A stretch of DNA of 5,128 nt from a virus (IMGVR_UViG_2728369553_000006); one strand, 5' to 3'; positions 763-5,128 are shown, counted from the stretch's first letter. Notes: a model not told the origin generated them from the letters alone. Numbers and translations: made by a program.

Positions 763-1909
763 CAGAACGGGTCCTCCTGTACTCTGGTTTTTTTCTTTTT
801 CCGCGCGCCGGGGGCTTCGGGTTCAGGCAGATAAGCATCAGGTGGGCCGACACGGATTTCCGTCAGGGTGCCATTCTGGTCCTGAGTAAACGTGACTTCC
901 GAGACAAGCAGTTCGGTATTGTCGAAACCACAGACCGGATCGAAGACAATCACCCGCTGGTTGGGCTGCCACAGCGTACCGTTACCCTGTCGCCAGCCCT
1001 GCACCACATAGGTGGTTTCATCCGTCCGCGCCGCCCGTTGNNNNNNNNNNNNNNNNNNNNNNNNNNNNNNNNNNNNNNNNNNNNNNNNNNNNNNNNNNNN
1101 NNNNNNNNNNNNNNNNNNNNNNNNNNGCCTGCCCCCGTAGCCTGCCCTGTCTGCCTGATATACATCGGACGGTAACGGGCAATAAATGCATCCTCTGTGC
1201 GGGCCCGCAGCGCGGTGGTGGTGGCCTCACCGAAATCATCGTCGTTTCCGGCACGCTGCCCCGCCACCTGGTAAACTGAAAACCGCTCCCGGATACTCTT
1301 CTCCGTATCACAGGAAAGGATGTTTTCCCCAAGTACCAGCGCGGTATGTGCCCGCGTTGAGCCAATACCACCAATCACCAGCCTGCCGTGCGGGTCGTCA
1401 TAAGCCAGCGCCTGCTGCTGACCGAGTATTTTGTTGATCACCTCGATCACCGTTTCACCGTGATCAGGCTGGACATCCGGAATAACACCCGACGGCGCAT
1501 CGCTGTTCACCACCTCAATGCCGAAAGGCGCAGCAAGCGCCTGCGCAATCTGTACCAGCGATCGTCCGTTAAACTGTGTCGGTTCGGCTGCACAGTCAAT
1601 CAGGTCAGCAGTCAGACTACGTCCGGCAATACCGGTGCTGACCGAACGGGCATCGTAACGAACGGGGGTCGCCTCCACCCAGCCGGTGATCACCAGCTCA
1701 TCACCAATCAGCACTTCCACTTTTGAACCATTTTTAATGCGCGGCTGAAGCGTGGTGATACCCTCATCTCCCGGCCACTGGCGGGTGATCTCCACGCTGA
1801 AATCCNNNNNNNNNNNNNNNNNNNNNNNNNNNNNNNNNNNNNNNNNNNNNNNNNNNNNNNNNNNNNNNNNNNNNNNNNNNNNNNNNNNNNNNNNNNNNNN
1901 NNNNNNCAT
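762..1909 (-). CDS. Baseplate hub protein (Mu gp44 / P2 gpD 'late control D' family), interrupted by two N gaps; exact sequence and length uncertain
   Basis: ATG at 1909-1907 followed by an N run, then a long protein-like reading (DFSVEITRQWPGDEGITTLQPRIKNGSKVEVLIGDELVITGWVEA…RYRPMYIRQTGQATGAG) down to the second N run. After 1041-1126 the protein-like frame is the one of track ORF 762..1007 (…VIVFDPVCGFDNTELLVSEVTFTQDQNGTLTEIRVGPPDAYLPEPEAPGARKKKKTRVQEDPF), ending with a stop at 762-764. Total span of about 1.15 kb (~380 aa) is in the range I recall for Mu gp44. Confidence 0.6.
1041..1126. other. Run of 86 N (assembly gap or masked sequence) inside the hub gene
   Basis: Literal n characters in the sequence. 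The protein-like reading frame differs on the two sides, so the N length is not the true length modulo 3. Confidence 0.95.
1806..1906. other. Run of 101 N (assembly gap or masked sequence) covering the N-terminal ~34 codons of the hub gene
   Basis: Literal n characters. The hub frame continues in phase across it, so its length may be approximately correct. Confidence 0.95.
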
Positions 1910-3234
1910 TGCACTGGCACCTTCAGAGGGATTACCGGCACAAAGCCGGGATGCGTAATGGCATTACGCCGGATAATGTCCGCGTCACGCGCCGCGTTAT
2001 CAAACCAGGTCGCCGCCAGCACCAGCGCGGGTAAAACCTCATCCGGCGTGCGCTGAATGATCCGAGCAGACTGTTCAAGGCGCGTGTTGATATCCGCATT
2101 CAGATCTGCTTTCACCCGGCGCAGAGCCAGAAACAGCGCATCACTGGTTGTACGGGACAACTCCTTATCAATTGCCGTATTCAGTGTGTCGCGAATGTCG
2201 GTCAGTTCTTCCCACGTTGGCAGGTCAACCGTGTTTTTCACCGCCGGTGCATTGTTCAGCACCGGATGCGTGACGGCAGGCCAGCCGGAGCTCTGCGCGG
2301 GTGTTGTTGACTGCCCCACTGCGGCATTCTGCATCACCGCAGAAGTTGTTGGCGCAGGCAATCGGGTAACGGCATACGCCGCTTCGCTGATTGCAGTCGT
2401 ACGAAGGGTGCTGGCAACCATGTTACGCTGCTGCGTCGCTGTGGCGGTGGTTTTACTGTCCGTTTTCCAGACGCCGCGCGGTTGCAAATCGCTGCCGAGG
2501 CTGACACCAGAAAGCGTTTTGATCATGGTGACCAGGTCGCTGGCGTTACCATAAAGGCGTTTCCCGGTACGCCACATTTTCTGCACCTGCTCAACGAAAT
2601 TTTTGCCTGACGATGGCGGCGGCAGAAGTACCGAGATATCCCCCTGCAACAGCCTGGCGGCATCCGATACGGCAGAATCCACCACTTTCATCGCATCAGA
2701 AACATACCCCAGCATTATGCTGGCATTACCGATAACGTCGTTCTGCACGAAATCCGCCACACCATCGATACTGAAACCGCTGAAGCTGTCACTGATGCAG
2801 TCATCCAGTGCAGAACAGGATGACATCAGCGTCTGCGCCGTCGCCGCACCTGATGTGGGGTAAGAGAGTTCTCCTGCTTCGACAAACTTCAGGTCAAAGC
2901 GGACAATACGCCCTTCACTTTTCGATGTGCTGACCCGAACTTCCCCGTCAACACAGACTTTCAGCTCACCATATGTCGGGTGGACAAGCGTGCCGGGACC
3001 TGGTTTATTCAGCGCTTCAATCAGGCGATCGCGCTGGTCAAAGCAGTCATCTCCCACCACATAAGCCGTGATGGACGGGCGAAAAGTGATTTTCCCCAGG
3101 TCTTCGGTATAGGGTTTGTCGCGGTTCGGGTATTCATGTGTTTCCACACGGCGACCGGTTCCCGCACTTTCTTCTTCAACCTTAAACGGCACGCCGCGAA
3201 ATGACGCGTCCTGAAGCCTGTCTTTCCACGTCAT
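1906..3234 (-). CDS. DNA circularization protein N homolog (Mu gp43-like), ~442 aa
   Basis: N-terminus MTWKDRLQDASFRGVPFKVEEESAGTGRRVETHEYPNRDKPYTEDLG… matches what I recall of the conserved N-terminal domain of Mu protein N. Good SD (GGAG at 3240-3243, 5-nt spacer) before ATG 3234-3232. It is directly followed by the hub gene as in Mu. The in-frame codon at 1908-1906 is T-G-N (third base masked) and overlaps the hub ATG at 1909-1907, which I infer is a TGA stop in an ATGA coupling. The track's extension to 1708 reads through the N run and gives an implausible tail, so I end the gene at 1906. Confidence 0.7.
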
Positions 3235-3239
3235 ATATA

Positions 3240-3243
3240 CTCC
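3240..3243 (-). promoter_or_regulatory. Shine-Dalgarno sequence (GGAG) for the N-homolog gene
   Basis: Minus strand reads …ttttCGGAGtatatATG; GGAG lies 5 nt before the start codon. Confidence 0.55.
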
Positions 3244-3244
3244 G

Positions 3245-3276
3245 AAAATTAAAAAGCCACCTATTAGAAGGTGGCC
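3245..3276 (-). terminator. Rho-independent terminator downstream of the 176-aa moron ORF
   Basis: Plus strand 3256-3262 gccacct and 3269-3275 aggtggc form a 7-bp GC-rich stem with a 6-nt loop. On the minus strand the stem is followed immediately by TTTTTAATTTT (plus 3245-3255). It sits ~20 nt after the moron stop (3296-3298) and ends right at the RBS of the N gene. Confidence 0.6.
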
Positions 3277-3295
3277 TTGTAATGAATTTTATTAA

Positions 3296-3826
3296 TTAGC
3301 GAGTCAGAAACAACGAATCTTTATACTTTTGCTGTTGTTCATTTAAATACTTAGCTGTTTCATCGCTGGCAAATGGAAATATTACCGTATTTTTAGGCAT
3401 GGTAATTTCTTTTTTGTCCAGCGTCAGAGTAAACATAGGAACATACTGAGCAGAGTAACGCACCGCAGAAACGAGCTCTAGTTTAGACTCTTCAATAACA
3501 CTTAAATTATCCAGGCTAACTTTCTCTTCATCTTTTTTCTTTGACGCATTTAAAGTTTTTATTACTTTATTTAATTTCTCCTGAAAATCCTCCTTAAAGT
3601 TTTCAGGATTGCCGTCGACAACAAGAATCTGTTCACCCTGATTATCTGGAAAAATAATCTTTGCACTTATCAATTTATTTTCTTTATAAACATCACCAAG
3701 TTTTATGGCTCCTCCAGATAACTGAATAATATGTTCATCTTTAAAGGAGATGTTGCCAGAGATTATGAGAGATGAAAAAATAGCCGCTGCTCCAAGAATT
3801 ACACTTGCTGTGATATAGCCTTTCAT
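3296..3826 (-). CDS. Hypothetical protein, 176 aa, with N-terminal hydrophobic signal/anchor segment; AT-rich moron (cargo) gene of unknown function
   Basis: Intact ORF (ATG 3826-3824, TAA 3296-3298) with no competing ORF on either strand. N-terminus MKGYITASVILGAAAIFSSLIISGNISFK has a ~19-residue hydrophobic stretch; the rest is Lys/Glu/Asp/Asn-rich. Weak SD (AGGCG) upstream. Hand counts on sample lines give ~25-35% G+C here versus ~60%+ in the flanking tail genes. It has its own promoter-like sequence and terminator. I do not recognise the family. Confidence 0.7.
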   Translation of the reverse strand: MKGYITASVILGAAAIFSSLIISGNISFKDEHIIQLSGGAIKLGDVYKENKLISAKIIFPDNQGEQILVVDGNPENFKEDFQEKLNKVIKTLNASKKKDEEKVSLDNLSVIEESKLELVSAVRYSAQYVPMFTLTLDKKEITMPKNTVIFPFASDETAKYLNEQQQKYKDSLFLTR

Positions 3827-3861
3827 TTTTCGCCTATTAACATTTTTCTAAATGTGCATTA

Positions 3862-3889
3862 ATTCTATCACTCTATTTATGACTTACAA
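3862..3889 (-). promoter_or_regulatory. Candidate sigma70-type promoter for the moron ORF
   Basis: Minus strand reads TTGTAA (plus 3884-3889), a 16-nt spacer, then TAGAAT (plus 3862-3867), about 35 nt upstream of the ATG at 3826, within the AT-rich intergenic region after the tape-measure stop. Found by eye; -35 match is weak (4/6), -10 is 5/6. Confidence 0.3.
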
Positions 3890-3917
3890 CCAGCAATACC
3901 TGTGAGGGGAATCCTGG

Positions 3918-5128
3918 CTACCAAAATCGGGTATAGCCAACATCGTGATTTATATCAATGCCACTGGAGCGTGTTTCCGTAACCCGCATACCTGGTGGCA
4001 TATTTATAAATGATACCTTGATCTCACCATCAACTTTTGGCGCGGTAGCTTTATTAATCATGAAGGGATTCGGACCTGTGGCACCGGAGGCGTTGTTTGC
4101 CTGAGCCGGATCCACCTCCGGATAAGGAGTGTATCCCCGTGGCGGTATTCCCGTCCCATAAGCATCATAAGCACCCGCGCCCCACTGCGCCGAGTTAATG
4201 GCATCGACCGTGTCACCGGAACTGTCGGTAAACCATTCAATAATCGGCTTCAGCTTATCCCACATATCCTGAAACCACTTAACAACCGGTCCCCAGTTAT
4301 TGATCACCATCCCCAGCGGCGACCAGGCAAAAACCTTCTTCAGAAGTTCCCAGCCAGCCTCAAAATAAGGACTAATGGTTTCCCAGAGCTTCTTAAAATA
4401 AGGTCCGACAACATCCCAGTTAGTGATAATTAATCCCGCAGCCAGGGCAATCGCCGTCGCAATCATGCCAATCGGCGTCATCGACATGATCCTGCTGACG
4501 ATACTGATGGCACTGCCCACGCCCATCAATCCCAGTTTCAGAATCGCAAGACCGGCAGCAAGCCCGACGACGCCGCGAATAACCCGGGGATTTTCATCCG
4601 CAAACTTCGTGAATTTTTCCCCTAACTCCCCCAGCCATTGCGTGATATTTTTGACGTCACCAGAAAATGCGCCGCCAATAGCCGCAAGGCCGTTAGTTGC
4701 GGTCCCCGTCATTGCCTCCCACAGGTTGGACAGCGTACCAAGCTGGGCCTGAACACGTTTATTCAGGCTGGCCTGTTTATTCATCTTCTGCTGGATCTGA
4801 TCGTAACCATCCTTTCCTTTATCGATCAGAGCATTGACCACCTGAAGGGTTTCGGCATCATCACCAAATATTGCCTTAAGTACACCGGTTCGCTTAACGT
4901 CGGTCAGTTTTCGCAGCTTTGCCAGTTGCCTGAACATGTTATCAAGACCGCCAAAACTCCCTTTGCCGTCAGTAAAATCGAGCTGTACCCCGAGTTTCTG
5001 GCGGGCCATAACTTTATTAACGTCCCTGATTTTCTTAACGCTTAATCCGGACTGGATAACTTTTCGCAGGGCATTACCTGCCGACTCCCCGTTCATCCCC
5101 ATCTGATCCATCATGACGCTGATGGGGG
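3918..5128 (-). CDS. Tail tape measure protein, C-terminal ~400 aa (5' end of gene lies beyond the right edge of the window)
   Basis: Frame is open from the window edge (…PISVMMDQMG…) to TAG at 3918-3920. It contains a long Gly/Ala/Ile-rich hydrophobic segment (RVIRGVVGLAAGLAILKLGLMGVGSAISIVSRIMSMTPIGMIATAIALAAGLIITNW), followed by Trp residues at ~11-residue spacing (W233, W244, W255, W264, W274…), and an N-proximal charged, helix-like region. It lies upstream of the N-homolog gene as the tape measure does in Mu. Confidence 0.75.
   Translation of the reverse strand, partial: PISVMMDQMGMNGESAGNALRKVIQSGLSVKKIRDVNKVMARQKLGVQLDFTDGKGSFGGLDNMFRQLAKLRKLTDVKRTGVLKAIFGDDAETLQVVNALIDKGKDGYDQIQQKMNKQASLNKRVQAQLGTLSNLWEAMTGTATNGLAAIGGAFSGDVKNITQWLGELGEKFTKFADENPRVIRGVVGLAAGLAILKLGLMGVGSAISIVSRIMSMTPIGMIATAIALAAGLIITNWDVVGPYFKKLWETISPYFEAGWELLKKVFAWSPLGMVINNWGPVVKWFQDMWDKLKPIIEWFTDSSGDTVDAINSAQWGAGAYDAYGTGIPPRGYTPYPEVDPAQANNASGATGPNPFMINKATAPKVDGEIKVSFINMPPGMRVTETRSSGIDINHDVGYTRFW

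What the first reader, a model, noticed from the sequence alone, without database searches (positions are those of the whole stretch)
3241..3917. Compositionally foreign single-gene insertion (moron) between the tape-measure and N genes
In Mu as I recall it, the tape-measure gene is followed directly by gene N. Here ~680 bp of strongly AT-rich DNA sits between them, in an otherwise GC-rich, tightly packed and translationally coupled tail operon. It carries one intact ORF in the same orientation, preceded by a promoter-like sequence and followed by a canonical intrinsic terminator. That is the classic moron architecture: a horizontally acquired, independently expressed cargo gene that can be expressed from the repressed prophage. 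Such loci are where phages carry superinfection-exclusion, defence or host-fitness genes.
Basis: partly seen in the sequence, partly recalled or inferred. Interest (0 to 1): 0.8.

Follow-up and report, generated by a model that had tools for sequence, protein, structure and literature searches.

The report
Tail-operon cargo gene in prophage hotspot
A real, self-contained AT-rich "add-on" gene sits between the tape-measure and baseplate-hub genes of an SfV-like E. coli prophage, at a junction where related phages carry nothing or other cargo, and it encodes an uncharacterised membrane-anchored periplasmic protein that most likely blocks entry of other phages.

Summary
Bases 3235-3917 are 34% GC against 51-57% in the flanks, a z of -8.8 against the rest of the late operon. 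They carry one 176-aa ORF (3296-3826) on the minus strand, like the tail genes. An extended -10 promoter-like site lies upstream and a strong hairpin plus T-run terminator abuts the ribosome-binding site of gene N.

The phage is not Mu. It is an SfV/e14-like lambdoid prophage with a Mu-type tail and a Q-like antiterminator.

About 1090 of 5426 complete E. coli genomes carry this tail module. At the junction, roughly 45% are empty (60 bp, still with a terminator) and 16% carry this gene. Others carry unrelated cassettes: bPH_1, a membrane OB-fold, a secreted 164-aa protein and a 225-aa lipoprotein.

The cassette is at least 99% identical across prophages whose N genes differ by about 8%. Yet 30-58% identical homologues occupy the same slot in Leclercia, Edwardsiella and others. 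They stay AT-rich and track N in divergence.

The protein has one N-terminal transmembrane helix plus an alpha/beta sandwich (pLDDT 91.7). It matches no Pfam, PADLOC or PDB entry. A lipoprotein relative occurs in a virulent Pseudomonas phage.

The moron reading is well supported (about 0.9). A superinfection-exclusion function is inferred only (about 0.4).

The parts
3918..5128 (-). C-terminal roughly 400 codons of the tail tape-measure gene. This is the upstream flank, and its stop codon is at 3918-3920.
   Evidence: PF10145 PhageMin_Tail and phrog_17727 (E 5e-163). RefSeq annotates it as 'phage tail tape measure protein' in identical prophages. Homology between junction alleles breaks within the last 1-4 codons.
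3862..3889 (-). Sigma-70 promoter-like site with an extended -10: TTGTAA, 16 nt, TGaTAGAAT. Its -10 element ends 35 nt upstream of the ATG.
   Evidence: It is a consensus match only and is not above chance by count. Comparable extended -10 candidates lie upstream of the 164-aa and 225-aa cassettes and of the homologues in L013, L014 and L029.
3296..3826 (-). Cargo ORF of 176 aa (WP_000679479.1, phrog_5485). It has an N-terminal transmembrane or signal-anchor helix (residues 2-23) followed by a roughly 150-aa two-layer alpha/beta domain.
   Evidence: The AF2 model reaches pLDDT 91.7. Kyte-Doolittle hydropathy peaks at 2.1 over residues 5-23. dN/dS is 0.08 between two homologues. There is no Pfam, NCBIfam or PADLOC hit.
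3243..3278 (-). Intrinsic terminator: a 10-bp stem, a 6-nt loop and a T-rich tail.
   Evidence: dG -17.3, z -4.05. Each same-strand allele carries its own hairpin in this position, and so does the empty allele.
3235..3252 (-). Shared junction sequence holding gene N's ribosome-binding site (GGAG at 3243-3240) and the T-run. This is the N-side boundary of the variable cassette.
   Evidence: Alignment of seven alleles.
1906..3234 (-). Gene N (DNA circularization / baseplate hub protein), the downstream flank. Its 3' end falls in a masked N run.
   Evidence: PF07157 (E 1e-33) and phrog_184 baseplate hub (E 1e-145). Coordinates come from RefSeq annotation of the identical prophage. N runs lie at 1041-1126 and 1806-1906.

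Best explanation
The segment is a moron: an exchangeable one-gene cassette. It lies in a polymorphic cargo slot between the tape-measure gene and the hub gene N of SfV-like temperate phages, which combine lambdoid regulation, an HK97-type head and a Mu-type contractile tail.

Shown here:
- The cassette is dispensable, because relatives with an empty site include isolated phages.
- Its composition is distinct from the rest of the operon.
- It is bounded precisely by the tape-measure stop codon and N's ribosome-binding site.
- It is exchanged between prophage backgrounds.
- It encodes a conserved protein under purifying selection, with one N-terminal membrane helix and a confidently modelled alpha/beta domain.

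Inferred:
- In the lysogen it is transcribed from its own extended -10 promoter and stops at its own terminator.
- During lytic growth, Q-modified RNA polymerase reads through, so the gene is also made late.
- The protein inserts into the inner membrane with its N-terminus inside, so the globular domain sits at the periplasmic face.
- There it acts as a superinfection-exclusion factor. It interferes with genome delivery (channel formation by tape measure and hub at the inner membrane), or with an envelope receptor, of incoming phages that carry related tails. Late in infection it would also spare progeny from wasted injection.

Confidence by layer: moron cassette in a hotspot, about 0.9. Envelope-located protein, about 0.8. 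Phage-exclusion function, about 0.4.
For: - Polymorphic junction with an empty allele and at least five unrelated cassettes at identical boundaries.
- Cassette at least 99% identical in 179 of 180 E. coli records.
- SNP density 0.3-0.9% in the cassette, against 7.5-8.8% in N and 2.5-3.1% in the tape-measure gene.
- GC z = -8.8.
- Terminator and promoter-like site.
- Q-like antiterminator gene in the prophage.
- Transmembrane helix and fold.
- Four of the five alternative cargo types are also envelope-targeted: signal peptide, lipobox, membrane-anchored OB-fold, and this transmembrane protein.
- A remote homologue in the virulent Pseudomonas phage ventosus is a lipoprotein encoded outside that phage's tail-gene region, among small, mostly unannotated genes. 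The family motif follows directly after its lipobox.
- The family recurs as an AT-rich island next to hub, tape-measure or spike genes in a different baseplate module and convergent with another tape-measure gene.
- The layout is the same as the HK97 gene 15 moron, an inner-membrane protein that blocks DNA injection (PMC3594210).
Against: - There are no expression data, and the promoter match is not above chance by count.
- DNA at 34% GC in E. coli is a typical H-NS target and may be silenced (general knowledge).
- Homologues persist in this slot down to 30% identity and their divergence tracks N (r = 0.89). That pattern would also fit a tail-linked phage function.
- The Edwardsiella homologue has no terminator before N, and the L027 homologue overlaps the next gene by 4 nt. 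Autonomy is therefore not universal in the family.
- Some distant members lie in contexts that do not look like phage.
Confidence: 0.5

Rival explanations
1. It is a tail-linked phage function rather than host-directed cargo. The protein would be an optional accessory of the hub and tape-measure machinery. It might be a membrane-anchored assembly or ejection helper, or a late-expressed factor that only serves the phage's own lytic cycle. It would be expressed mainly from the late operon.
For: - Homologues at 30-58% identity occupy the same tape-measure/N slot in at least six lineages.
- Another homologue sits between hub and spike genes of a different baseplate and overlaps the spike gene's start.
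- Divergence of the protein tracks N (r = 0.89).
- Low GC is maintained over deep divergence, so it is not evidence of recent import.
Against: - The gene is absent from about 45% of nearly identical tail modules, including the isolated phages SfV, SfI, SfII and vB_EcoM-689R6. It is therefore not needed for assembly or infection.
- It is replaced by unrelated proteins at the same site.
- It has its own terminator and promoter-like site.
- A homologue lies outside the tail-gene region, among small, mostly unannotated genes, in a virulent phage.
- A membrane-anchored periplasmic protein cannot join cytoplasmic tail assembly (inference).
Confidence: 0.15
2. It is a lysogenic-conversion or host-fitness factor unrelated to phages. 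The envelope protein would change surface properties, for example serum or bile resistance, adhesion or an envelope stress response, in the manner of lambda Bor and Lom.
For: - Predicted envelope location.
- Carried by pathogenic and commensal strains from many hosts, including ETEC H10407 and APEC strains.
Against: - The family also occurs in a virulent Pseudomonas phage and in environmental metagenome contigs, where host conversion makes little sense.
- There is no known virulence or adhesin domain.
- The repeated association with tail-hub genes is not explained.
Confidence: 0.15
3. It is a silent passenger. The cassette would be a relic kept by linkage, not expressed at useful levels in either state, and spread only by hitch-hiking with recombining tail modules.
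For: - The promoter match is at chance level.
- AT-rich DNA is prone to H-NS silencing (general knowledge).
- One strain has an IS5-family transposase annotated within the cassette region (H38).
Against: - Strong purifying selection, dN/dS 0.08.
- Full-length conservation across 79 clusters at 50% identity.
- Intact in 174 of 178 E. coli genomes that carry it.
- A confidently folding domain.
Confidence: 0.05

Closest known systems
HK97 gene 15 moron (gp15 superinfection-exclusion protein; Juhala et al. 2000, Cumby et al. 2012, as summarised in PMC3594210)
   Same: Both are single-gene, AT-rich additions inside the tail operon next to the tape-measure gene, in the same orientation as the late genes. 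Both have their own terminator, whose T-run abuts the next late gene's ribosome-binding site (searches compared with 29, 59). Both products are membrane proteins. Both phages use lambdoid late antitermination.
   Different: There is no sequence relationship (hhalign probability 0.1%). gp15 is 62 aa and lies upstream of the tape-measure gene. This protein is 176 aa with a large periplasmic domain and lies downstream, before the hub gene N. An exclusion phenotype is shown for gp15 and only inferred here.
Variable cargo hotspots of P2-like phages and P4 satellites (Rousset et al. 2022, cited from the reference lists of PMC12952977 and PMC10884400)
   Same: Both are fixed slots between conserved phage core genes that hold alternative, unrelated cassettes in otherwise near-identical elements across E. 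coli genomes.
   Different: This slot lies inside the structural tail operon of SfV-like phages. None of the five cargo proteins tested matches a PADLOC v2 defence model. The cargo is mostly small envelope proteins rather than cytoplasmic immune systems.
Early-expressed envelope exclusion proteins of virulent phages (T5 Llp lipoprotein, T4 Sp and Imm) and type-II membrane Sie proteins of lactococcal prophages (Sie2009). These are recalled from general knowledge and were not tested.
   Same: All are small phage-encoded proteins anchored to the envelope by one transmembrane helix or a lipid, with the functional part outside the cytoplasm. The family has both a transmembrane-anchored form (this gene) and a lipoprotein form in a virulent phage.
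   Different: No homology was tested or expected, and the mechanism and target here are unknown.
phrog_5485 (PHROGs v4, unknown function)
   Same: The protein matches the profile end to end at E 3.8e-108, and all 60 sampled family members hit it.
   Different: The family has no annotated function, so membership says nothing about mechanism.

Membership tests
Moron (Juhala/Hendrix definition, as restated in PMC3594210) | Extra DNA that is absent from closely related phages | tested here: met
   The site is empty (60 bp) in SfV, SfI, SfII, vB_EcoM-689R6, UTI89 and O157:H7 prophages. The gap is 24 bp in SfIV and 4 bp in Mu.
Moron (Juhala/Hendrix definition, as restated in PMC3594210) | Base composition different from the surrounding genes | tested here: met
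   GC is 0.340 against 0.555 +/- 0.024, giving z = -8.8. GC3 is 0.30 against 0.56-0.64.
Moron (Juhala/Hendrix definition, as restated in PMC3594210) | Own promoter | tested here: inconclusive
   An extended -10 consensus match sits in the right place. However, the number of such matches in the window equals the chance expectation, and there are no transcript data.
Moron (Juhala/Hendrix definition, as restated in PMC3594210) | Own terminator | tested here: met
   A 10-bp hairpin plus T-run, dG -17.3, z -4.05. Caveat: the empty allele also has a terminator at this spot.
Moron (Juhala/Hendrix definition, as restated in PMC3594210) | Expression from the repressed prophage | not testable with these tools
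   Needs RNA-seq or 5'-RACE on a lysogen.
HK97 gp15 / YebO-type superinfection-exclusion proteins | Sequence homology to gp15 | tested here: not met
   hhalign of the family profile against HK97 gp15 gives probability 0.14%.
HK97 gp15 / YebO-type superinfection-exclusion proteins | Inner-membrane location and a block of DNA injection | not testable with these tools
   Only a predicted transmembrane helix. The phenotype needs experiments.
Known anti-phage defence systems (PADLOC-DB v2.0) | Match to any defence-protein model | tested here: not met
   No hits at E up to 1 for this protein or for the four alternative cargo proteins.
Prophage cargo hotspot (P2/P4 type) | Conserved flanking core genes with alternative unrelated cassettes at fixed boundaries | tested here: met
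   Seven alleles were aligned. Homology breaks at the last 1-4 tape-measure codons and about 20 nt upstream of the N start codon. The alternative cargo proteins are not homologous to each other.
phrog_5485 | Full-length match to the family profile | tested here: met
   E 3.8e-108 over residues 1-176 of 176. All 60 of 60 family members match.
Bacterial lipoprotein-type exclusion factors (Cor, Llp) | Lipobox with an invariant Cys | tested here: not met
   The protein has no cysteine. Only the remote homologue in phage ventosus has a lipobox, LLTGC.

The most novel reading that the evidence does not exclude
phrog_5485 may be a new family of tail-module-linked superinfection-exclusion proteins. 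They would act at the periplasmic face of the inner membrane against genome delivery by contractile-tailed phages, and would co-evolve with the hub protein N. On this reading, the tape-measure/N junction of SfV-like prophages is an undescribed exclusion hotspot. That tail module is present in about 20% of complete E. coli genomes. The other cassettes at the junction (bPH_1, membrane-anchored tRNA_anti-like OB-fold, a 164-aa secreted protein, a 225-aa lipoprotein) would be further new exclusion genes. The AT-richness, which persists across deep divergence, would be a selected regulatory feature such as H-NS-gated expression rather than a trace of recent import.
Probability: 0.3. Interest if true: 0.65.

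Novelty: new member of a known kind. Interest (0 to 1): 0.5.

Why it matters
Morons in tail operons have been known since HK97 gene 15. This junction, its set of alternative cassettes and this protein family do not appear in the literature I could search or in the defence-system models tested.

The tail module is present in about one in five complete E. coli genomes. The slot holds at least five unrelated small genes, most of them envelope-targeted. It is therefore a compact and experimentally easy place to look for new entry-level phage-resistance genes, which matter for phage therapy host range.

It also gives a clean case in which low GC is a maintained property of a cargo family over deep divergence, not a marker of recent acquisition. 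That is a caution for scans based on composition alone.

Tried and rejected
- **Domain searches.** Pfam, NCBIfam and PADLOC scans of the protein found nothing, even at permissive thresholds.
- **Rfam.** Only a sub-threshold Phe_leader match over the terminator (25 bits against a gathering score of 55). Rejected as chance.
- **Phage records.** tblastn against 50,697 phage records gave no hit. The family is missing from isolated phages at BLAST sensitivity, although a profile and fold search found the ventosus lipoprotein.
- **Related-loci scans.** Scans with the wide alignments failed for lack of a conserved stretch. Single-protein viral scans for P0037, P0057 and P0031 found nothing.
- **One divergent superfamily in the slot.** Rejected: hhalign probabilities were below 1%.
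- **A Mu-like transposable prophage.** Rejected: the context has a P27-type terminase, an HK97-type head, a Q antiterminator, lambdoid replication and lysis genes, and 94% nucleotide identity to SfV, SfI and SfII over the flanking genes.
- **Literature.** Searches for the accession, the PHROG id, and 'moron' plus 'tape measure' plus 'DNA circulation' gave no description of this locus. The SfIV paper describes a different moron in the Q-lysis region.

Full report
**1. What is in the window**

All genes run on the minus strand. From high to low coordinates they are as follows.
- The C-terminal roughly 400 codons of a tail tape-measure protein, ending at 3918 (PF10145, phrog_17727).
- A 176-aa ORF at 3296..3826.
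- Gene N at about 1906..3234 (PF07157 DNA_circ_N, phrog_184 baseplate hub).
- A gpP-type hub gene.
- A gp45-type spike gene.

Two stretches of the window are masked as N, at 1041-1126 and 1806-1906.

**2.

Composition:
- The 683 bp between the tape-measure stop codon and the N start codon (3235-3917) are 34.0% GC.
- The flank to the left is 57.3% GC and the flank to the right is 50.8%.
- An identical prophage was fetched from strain ECONIH4 (L001). There, every other 683-bp window of the 17.5-kb structural operon lies between 0.49 and about 0.60 GC, with mean 0.555 and sd 0.024. The segment is therefore 8.8 sd below the operon and is its only AT-rich island.
- GC3 of the ORF is 0.30, against 0.56-0.64 for N, the tape measure, the sheath and the capsid genes.

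Terminator:
- Downstream of the ORF there is a 10-bp hairpin followed by a T-run, at 3278..3243 on the gene strand.
- It has dG -17.3 kcal/mol and z -4.05, and none of 200 shuffles folded as well.
- Its T-run runs straight into N's GGAG ribosome-binding site.

Promoter:
- Upstream there is a promoter-like site with an extended -10, TTGTAA-16-TGaTAGAAT, at 3889..3862.
- By count this is no better than chance: 4 sites were found in the window and 4.4 were expected. Only its position, 35 nt before the ATG, speaks for it.
- Similar extended -10 candidates precede other cassettes and homologues.

**3. The element is SfV-like, not Mu**

The window is 100% identical to prophages in many E. coli genomes. 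The 41-kb context shows the following.
- A P27-type small terminase, an HK97-type protease and capsid, and a portal.
- A Mu-type contractile tail and baseplate.
- pinE, stfP, ymfQ and ymfR, which are e14 relatives.
- A holin, endolysin and spanin, and a Q-like antitermination protein.
- RusA and a lambdoid early region.

The closest isolated phages are Shigella phages SfV, SfI and SfII and Escherichia phages SKA5 and vB_EcoM-689R6, at 94-95% nucleotide identity over the flanking genes.

In Mu, gp42 (tape measure) and gp43 (N) are 4 bp apart.

**4. The junction is a polymorphic cargo slot**

A 1.5-kb query across the junction matched 1093 of 5426 complete E. coli genomes. Only 172 of them cover the whole query. 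An evenly spaced sample of 60 matching records gave these approximate shares.

| Allele at the junction | Share of sample |
|---|---|
| Empty | 45% |
| This cassette | 16% |
| 164-aa signal-peptide protein | 10% |
| 125-aa bPH_1 (PF08000) protein | 5% |
| Membrane-anchored tRNA_anti-like OB-fold protein (PF12869), on the opposite strand | 5% |
| 225-aa lipoprotein | 2% |
| One flank only | 17% |

- None of the alternative cargo proteins is related to this protein.
- None of the five hits a PADLOC defence model.
- In an alignment of seven alleles, homology breaks within the last 1-4 codons of the tape-measure gene (...GYTRF|W*). It resumes about 20 nt upstream of the N start codon.
- All the cassettes are AT-rich, at 0.31-0.41 GC.
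- The isolated Edwardsiella phage EPP-1 carries the bPH_1 cassette at the same junction. Such cassettes are therefore compatible with a viable phage and are shared across genera.

The empty allele is an unexpected detail. In UTI89, SfII and SfV it is 60 bp long and still contains a hairpin plus T-run terminator next to N's ribosome-binding site. The SfII record annotates it as such. Each same-strand cassette has its own hairpin sequence at that position. The terminator therefore belongs to the slot and not only to this cargo.

**5. The cassette moves between phage backgrounds**

- The cassette alone is found in 178 genomes, essentially always at this junction.
- It is at least 99% identical in 179 of 180 records.
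- Three cassette-bearing prophages were compared with the window. The cassette differs at 0.3-0.9% of sites, N at 7.5-8.8%, and the tape-measure part at 2.5-3.1%.

This mosaic pattern is what recombinational exchange of a cassette, or of its flanks, would produce.

**6. The family is nevertheless an old resident of the slot**

Homologues sit between a tape-measure gene and a DNA_circ_N gene in several other lineages.

| Source | Identity to this protein |
|---|---|
| Leclercia and Lelliottia prophages | 53-58% |
| Citrobacter | 59% |
| Edwardsiella | 41% |
| Two metagenomic lineages | 30-34% |

- Across 15 pairs, identity of the cargo protein tracks identity of N (r = 0.89). It does not track the tape measure, which is itself mosaic: 36% against 77% identity for two loci whose cargo proteins are equally distant from this one.
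- At all these depths the gene stays at about 35% GC within 50-56% GC flanks.

Low GC is therefore a maintained property of the family and not a trace of recent import. Autonomy is also not universal. The Edwardsiella copy is 13 nt from N with no terminator.

**7. The wider family**

- A profile search of 1.84 billion representatives found 79 clusters. Full-length members are 166-250 aa, mostly 170-195.
- One member at 30% identity lies in an AT-rich island (0.38 against 0.53-0.59 GC) between hub and spike genes of a different myovirus baseplate. It sits next to a second signal-peptide protein.
- One is convergent with another tape-measure gene.
- Others are near HTH genes or in contexts that do not look like phage.
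- All sampled members belong to phrog_5485, which has no known function.
- The one unsaturated pair gives dN/dS = 0.08.

**8. The protein**

- With the 60-sequence alignment, AlphaFold2 gives pLDDT 91.7 and pTM 0.76.
- The model has a helix at residues 2-23, followed by a two-layer sandwich. The strands are at 32-36, 39-44, 46-58, 65-72, 114-126 and 132-143, and they pack against helices 74-93 and 149-171.
- Hydropathy peaks at 2.1 over residues 5-23. There is a lysine at position 2 and no cysteine. This fits a signal anchor with the N-terminus inside and the domain in the periplasm, although a cleaved signal peptide is not excluded.
- The most conserved motif, G-x-V-x-L-G-x-V-Y-x-E, lies immediately after the anchor.
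- The viral structure library gave one real match, a protein named 'Lipoprotein' from Pseudomonas phage ventosus, at E 1.3e-6 and TM 0.56/0.66. I located it as CNR37_00111. It has a lipobox (LLTGC) followed by the family motif (hmmsearch E 6e-7). It lies outside the tail-gene region, among small, mostly unannotated genes, in this 97-kb virulent phage.

The same domain is therefore tethered to the envelope in two ways, and it is also used by a lytic phage.

**9. Interpretation**

Well supported:
- The segment is a dispensable, exchangeable, compositionally distinct one-gene cassette in a cargo hotspot.
- It copies the layout of the archetypal HK97 gene 15 moron (PMC3594210).
- The prophage's Q-like antiterminator gives a plausible means for late transcription to pass the terminator (inference).

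Inferred: the function. I favour superinfection exclusion at the envelope, most likely at genome delivery across the inner membrane, for these reasons.
- The protein is envelope-anchored.
- Most alternative cargo in the slot is envelope-targeted.
- A lipoprotein homologue is encoded outside the tail-gene region of a virulent phage, the classic setting for exclusion proteins.
- The family repeatedly sits beside tape-measure, hub and spike genes. This would keep an exclusion gene linked to the tail type it recognises.
- The best-studied analogue, HK97 gp15, does exactly this.

I put this at about 0.4. Three rivals remain open: a tail-linked phage function, a host-fitness factor, and silent cargo. 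None is favoured by the dispensability, the purifying selection and the homologue in a virulent phage taken together.

**10. Novelty**

The kind of element is known. Morons and prophage cargo hotspots are both established. The slot, its set of cassettes and the protein family are undescribed in the literature and model libraries available to me. I rate it as a new member of a known kind, of moderate interest.

Noticed in passing
L002 836-895 (UTI89); L019 1545-1583 (SfII); window 3243-3278: The 'empty' tape-measure/N junction (60 bp) still carries a hairpin plus T-run terminator abutting N's ribosome-binding site. Every same-strand cassette has its own different hairpin at that spot. A terminator inside the late tail operon therefore seems to be a standing feature of the slot. 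It could be a scar of lost cargo or a native regulatory element.
   Followed up: partly
L008 8013-9808; L009, L010, L012 and L013 equivalents: In the Leclercia/Lelliottia prophages two extra ORFs with no Pfam hit (503-507 aa and 94 aa) lie between N and the gpP hub gene. These two genes are adjacent in the E. coli and SfV-like phages. This may be a second cargo slot in the same tail module.
   Followed up: no
L031 (NZ_CP081716.1, 37,667-bp circular 'plasmid' of E. coli CX04): This record is a circular copy of the same phage genome, with the same capsid, connector and terminase protein accessions as the ECONIH4 prophage. The same strain's chromosome also holds the window sequence at 100% identity. 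This suggests the prophage excises or replicates spontaneously. The cargo ORF appears truncated there, probably through assembly errors.
   Followed up: partly
L001 34801-35801, 33051-33701 and 8501-11551: The same prophage has other AT-rich islands (below 0.40 GC). One lies between the Q-like antiterminator and the holin and holds a 111-aa hypothetical protein. One lies between the HNH gene and the lysis genes. One lies beyond the tail-fibre and pinE end and holds 488-aa and 139-aa hypothetical proteins next to a LEM-3-like GIY-YIG gene. These are further candidate cargo sites.
   Followed up: no
H38 (NZ_CP101274.1, 871121-873493): In strain EC21Z-014 an IS5-family transposase is annotated inside the cassette region. 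The cargo is annotated as two hypothetical proteins and the span is about 870 bp longer.
   Followed up: no
L030 2079-2456 (Edwardsiella phage EPP-1) and L003 899-1276: The bPH_1 (PF08000) cassette, with the same terminator hairpin, is shared between an isolated Edwardsiella phage and E. coli prophages at the same junction. The proteins are about 90% identical by eye.
   Followed up: partly
L004 836-1281 compared with L005 836-1424: There are two versions of the opposite-strand OB-fold cassette. The shorter one lacks about 143 bp that encode the N-terminal membrane segment and upstream region, so it may be a decayed copy.
   Followed up: no
L027 5576-5917: In a different myovirus baseplate module, the family member is preceded by a 113-aa signal-peptide protein within the same AT-rich island. 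This makes a two-gene envelope cargo island between hub and spike genes.
   Followed up: no
window 1041-1126 and 1806-1906: There are two masked runs of N, of 86 and 101 bases. They fuse neighbouring ORFs in mechanical ORF lists and depress the apparent GC in the composition profile at about 900-1200 and 1700-2000. These dips are artefacts, not AT-rich islands.
   Followed up: yes
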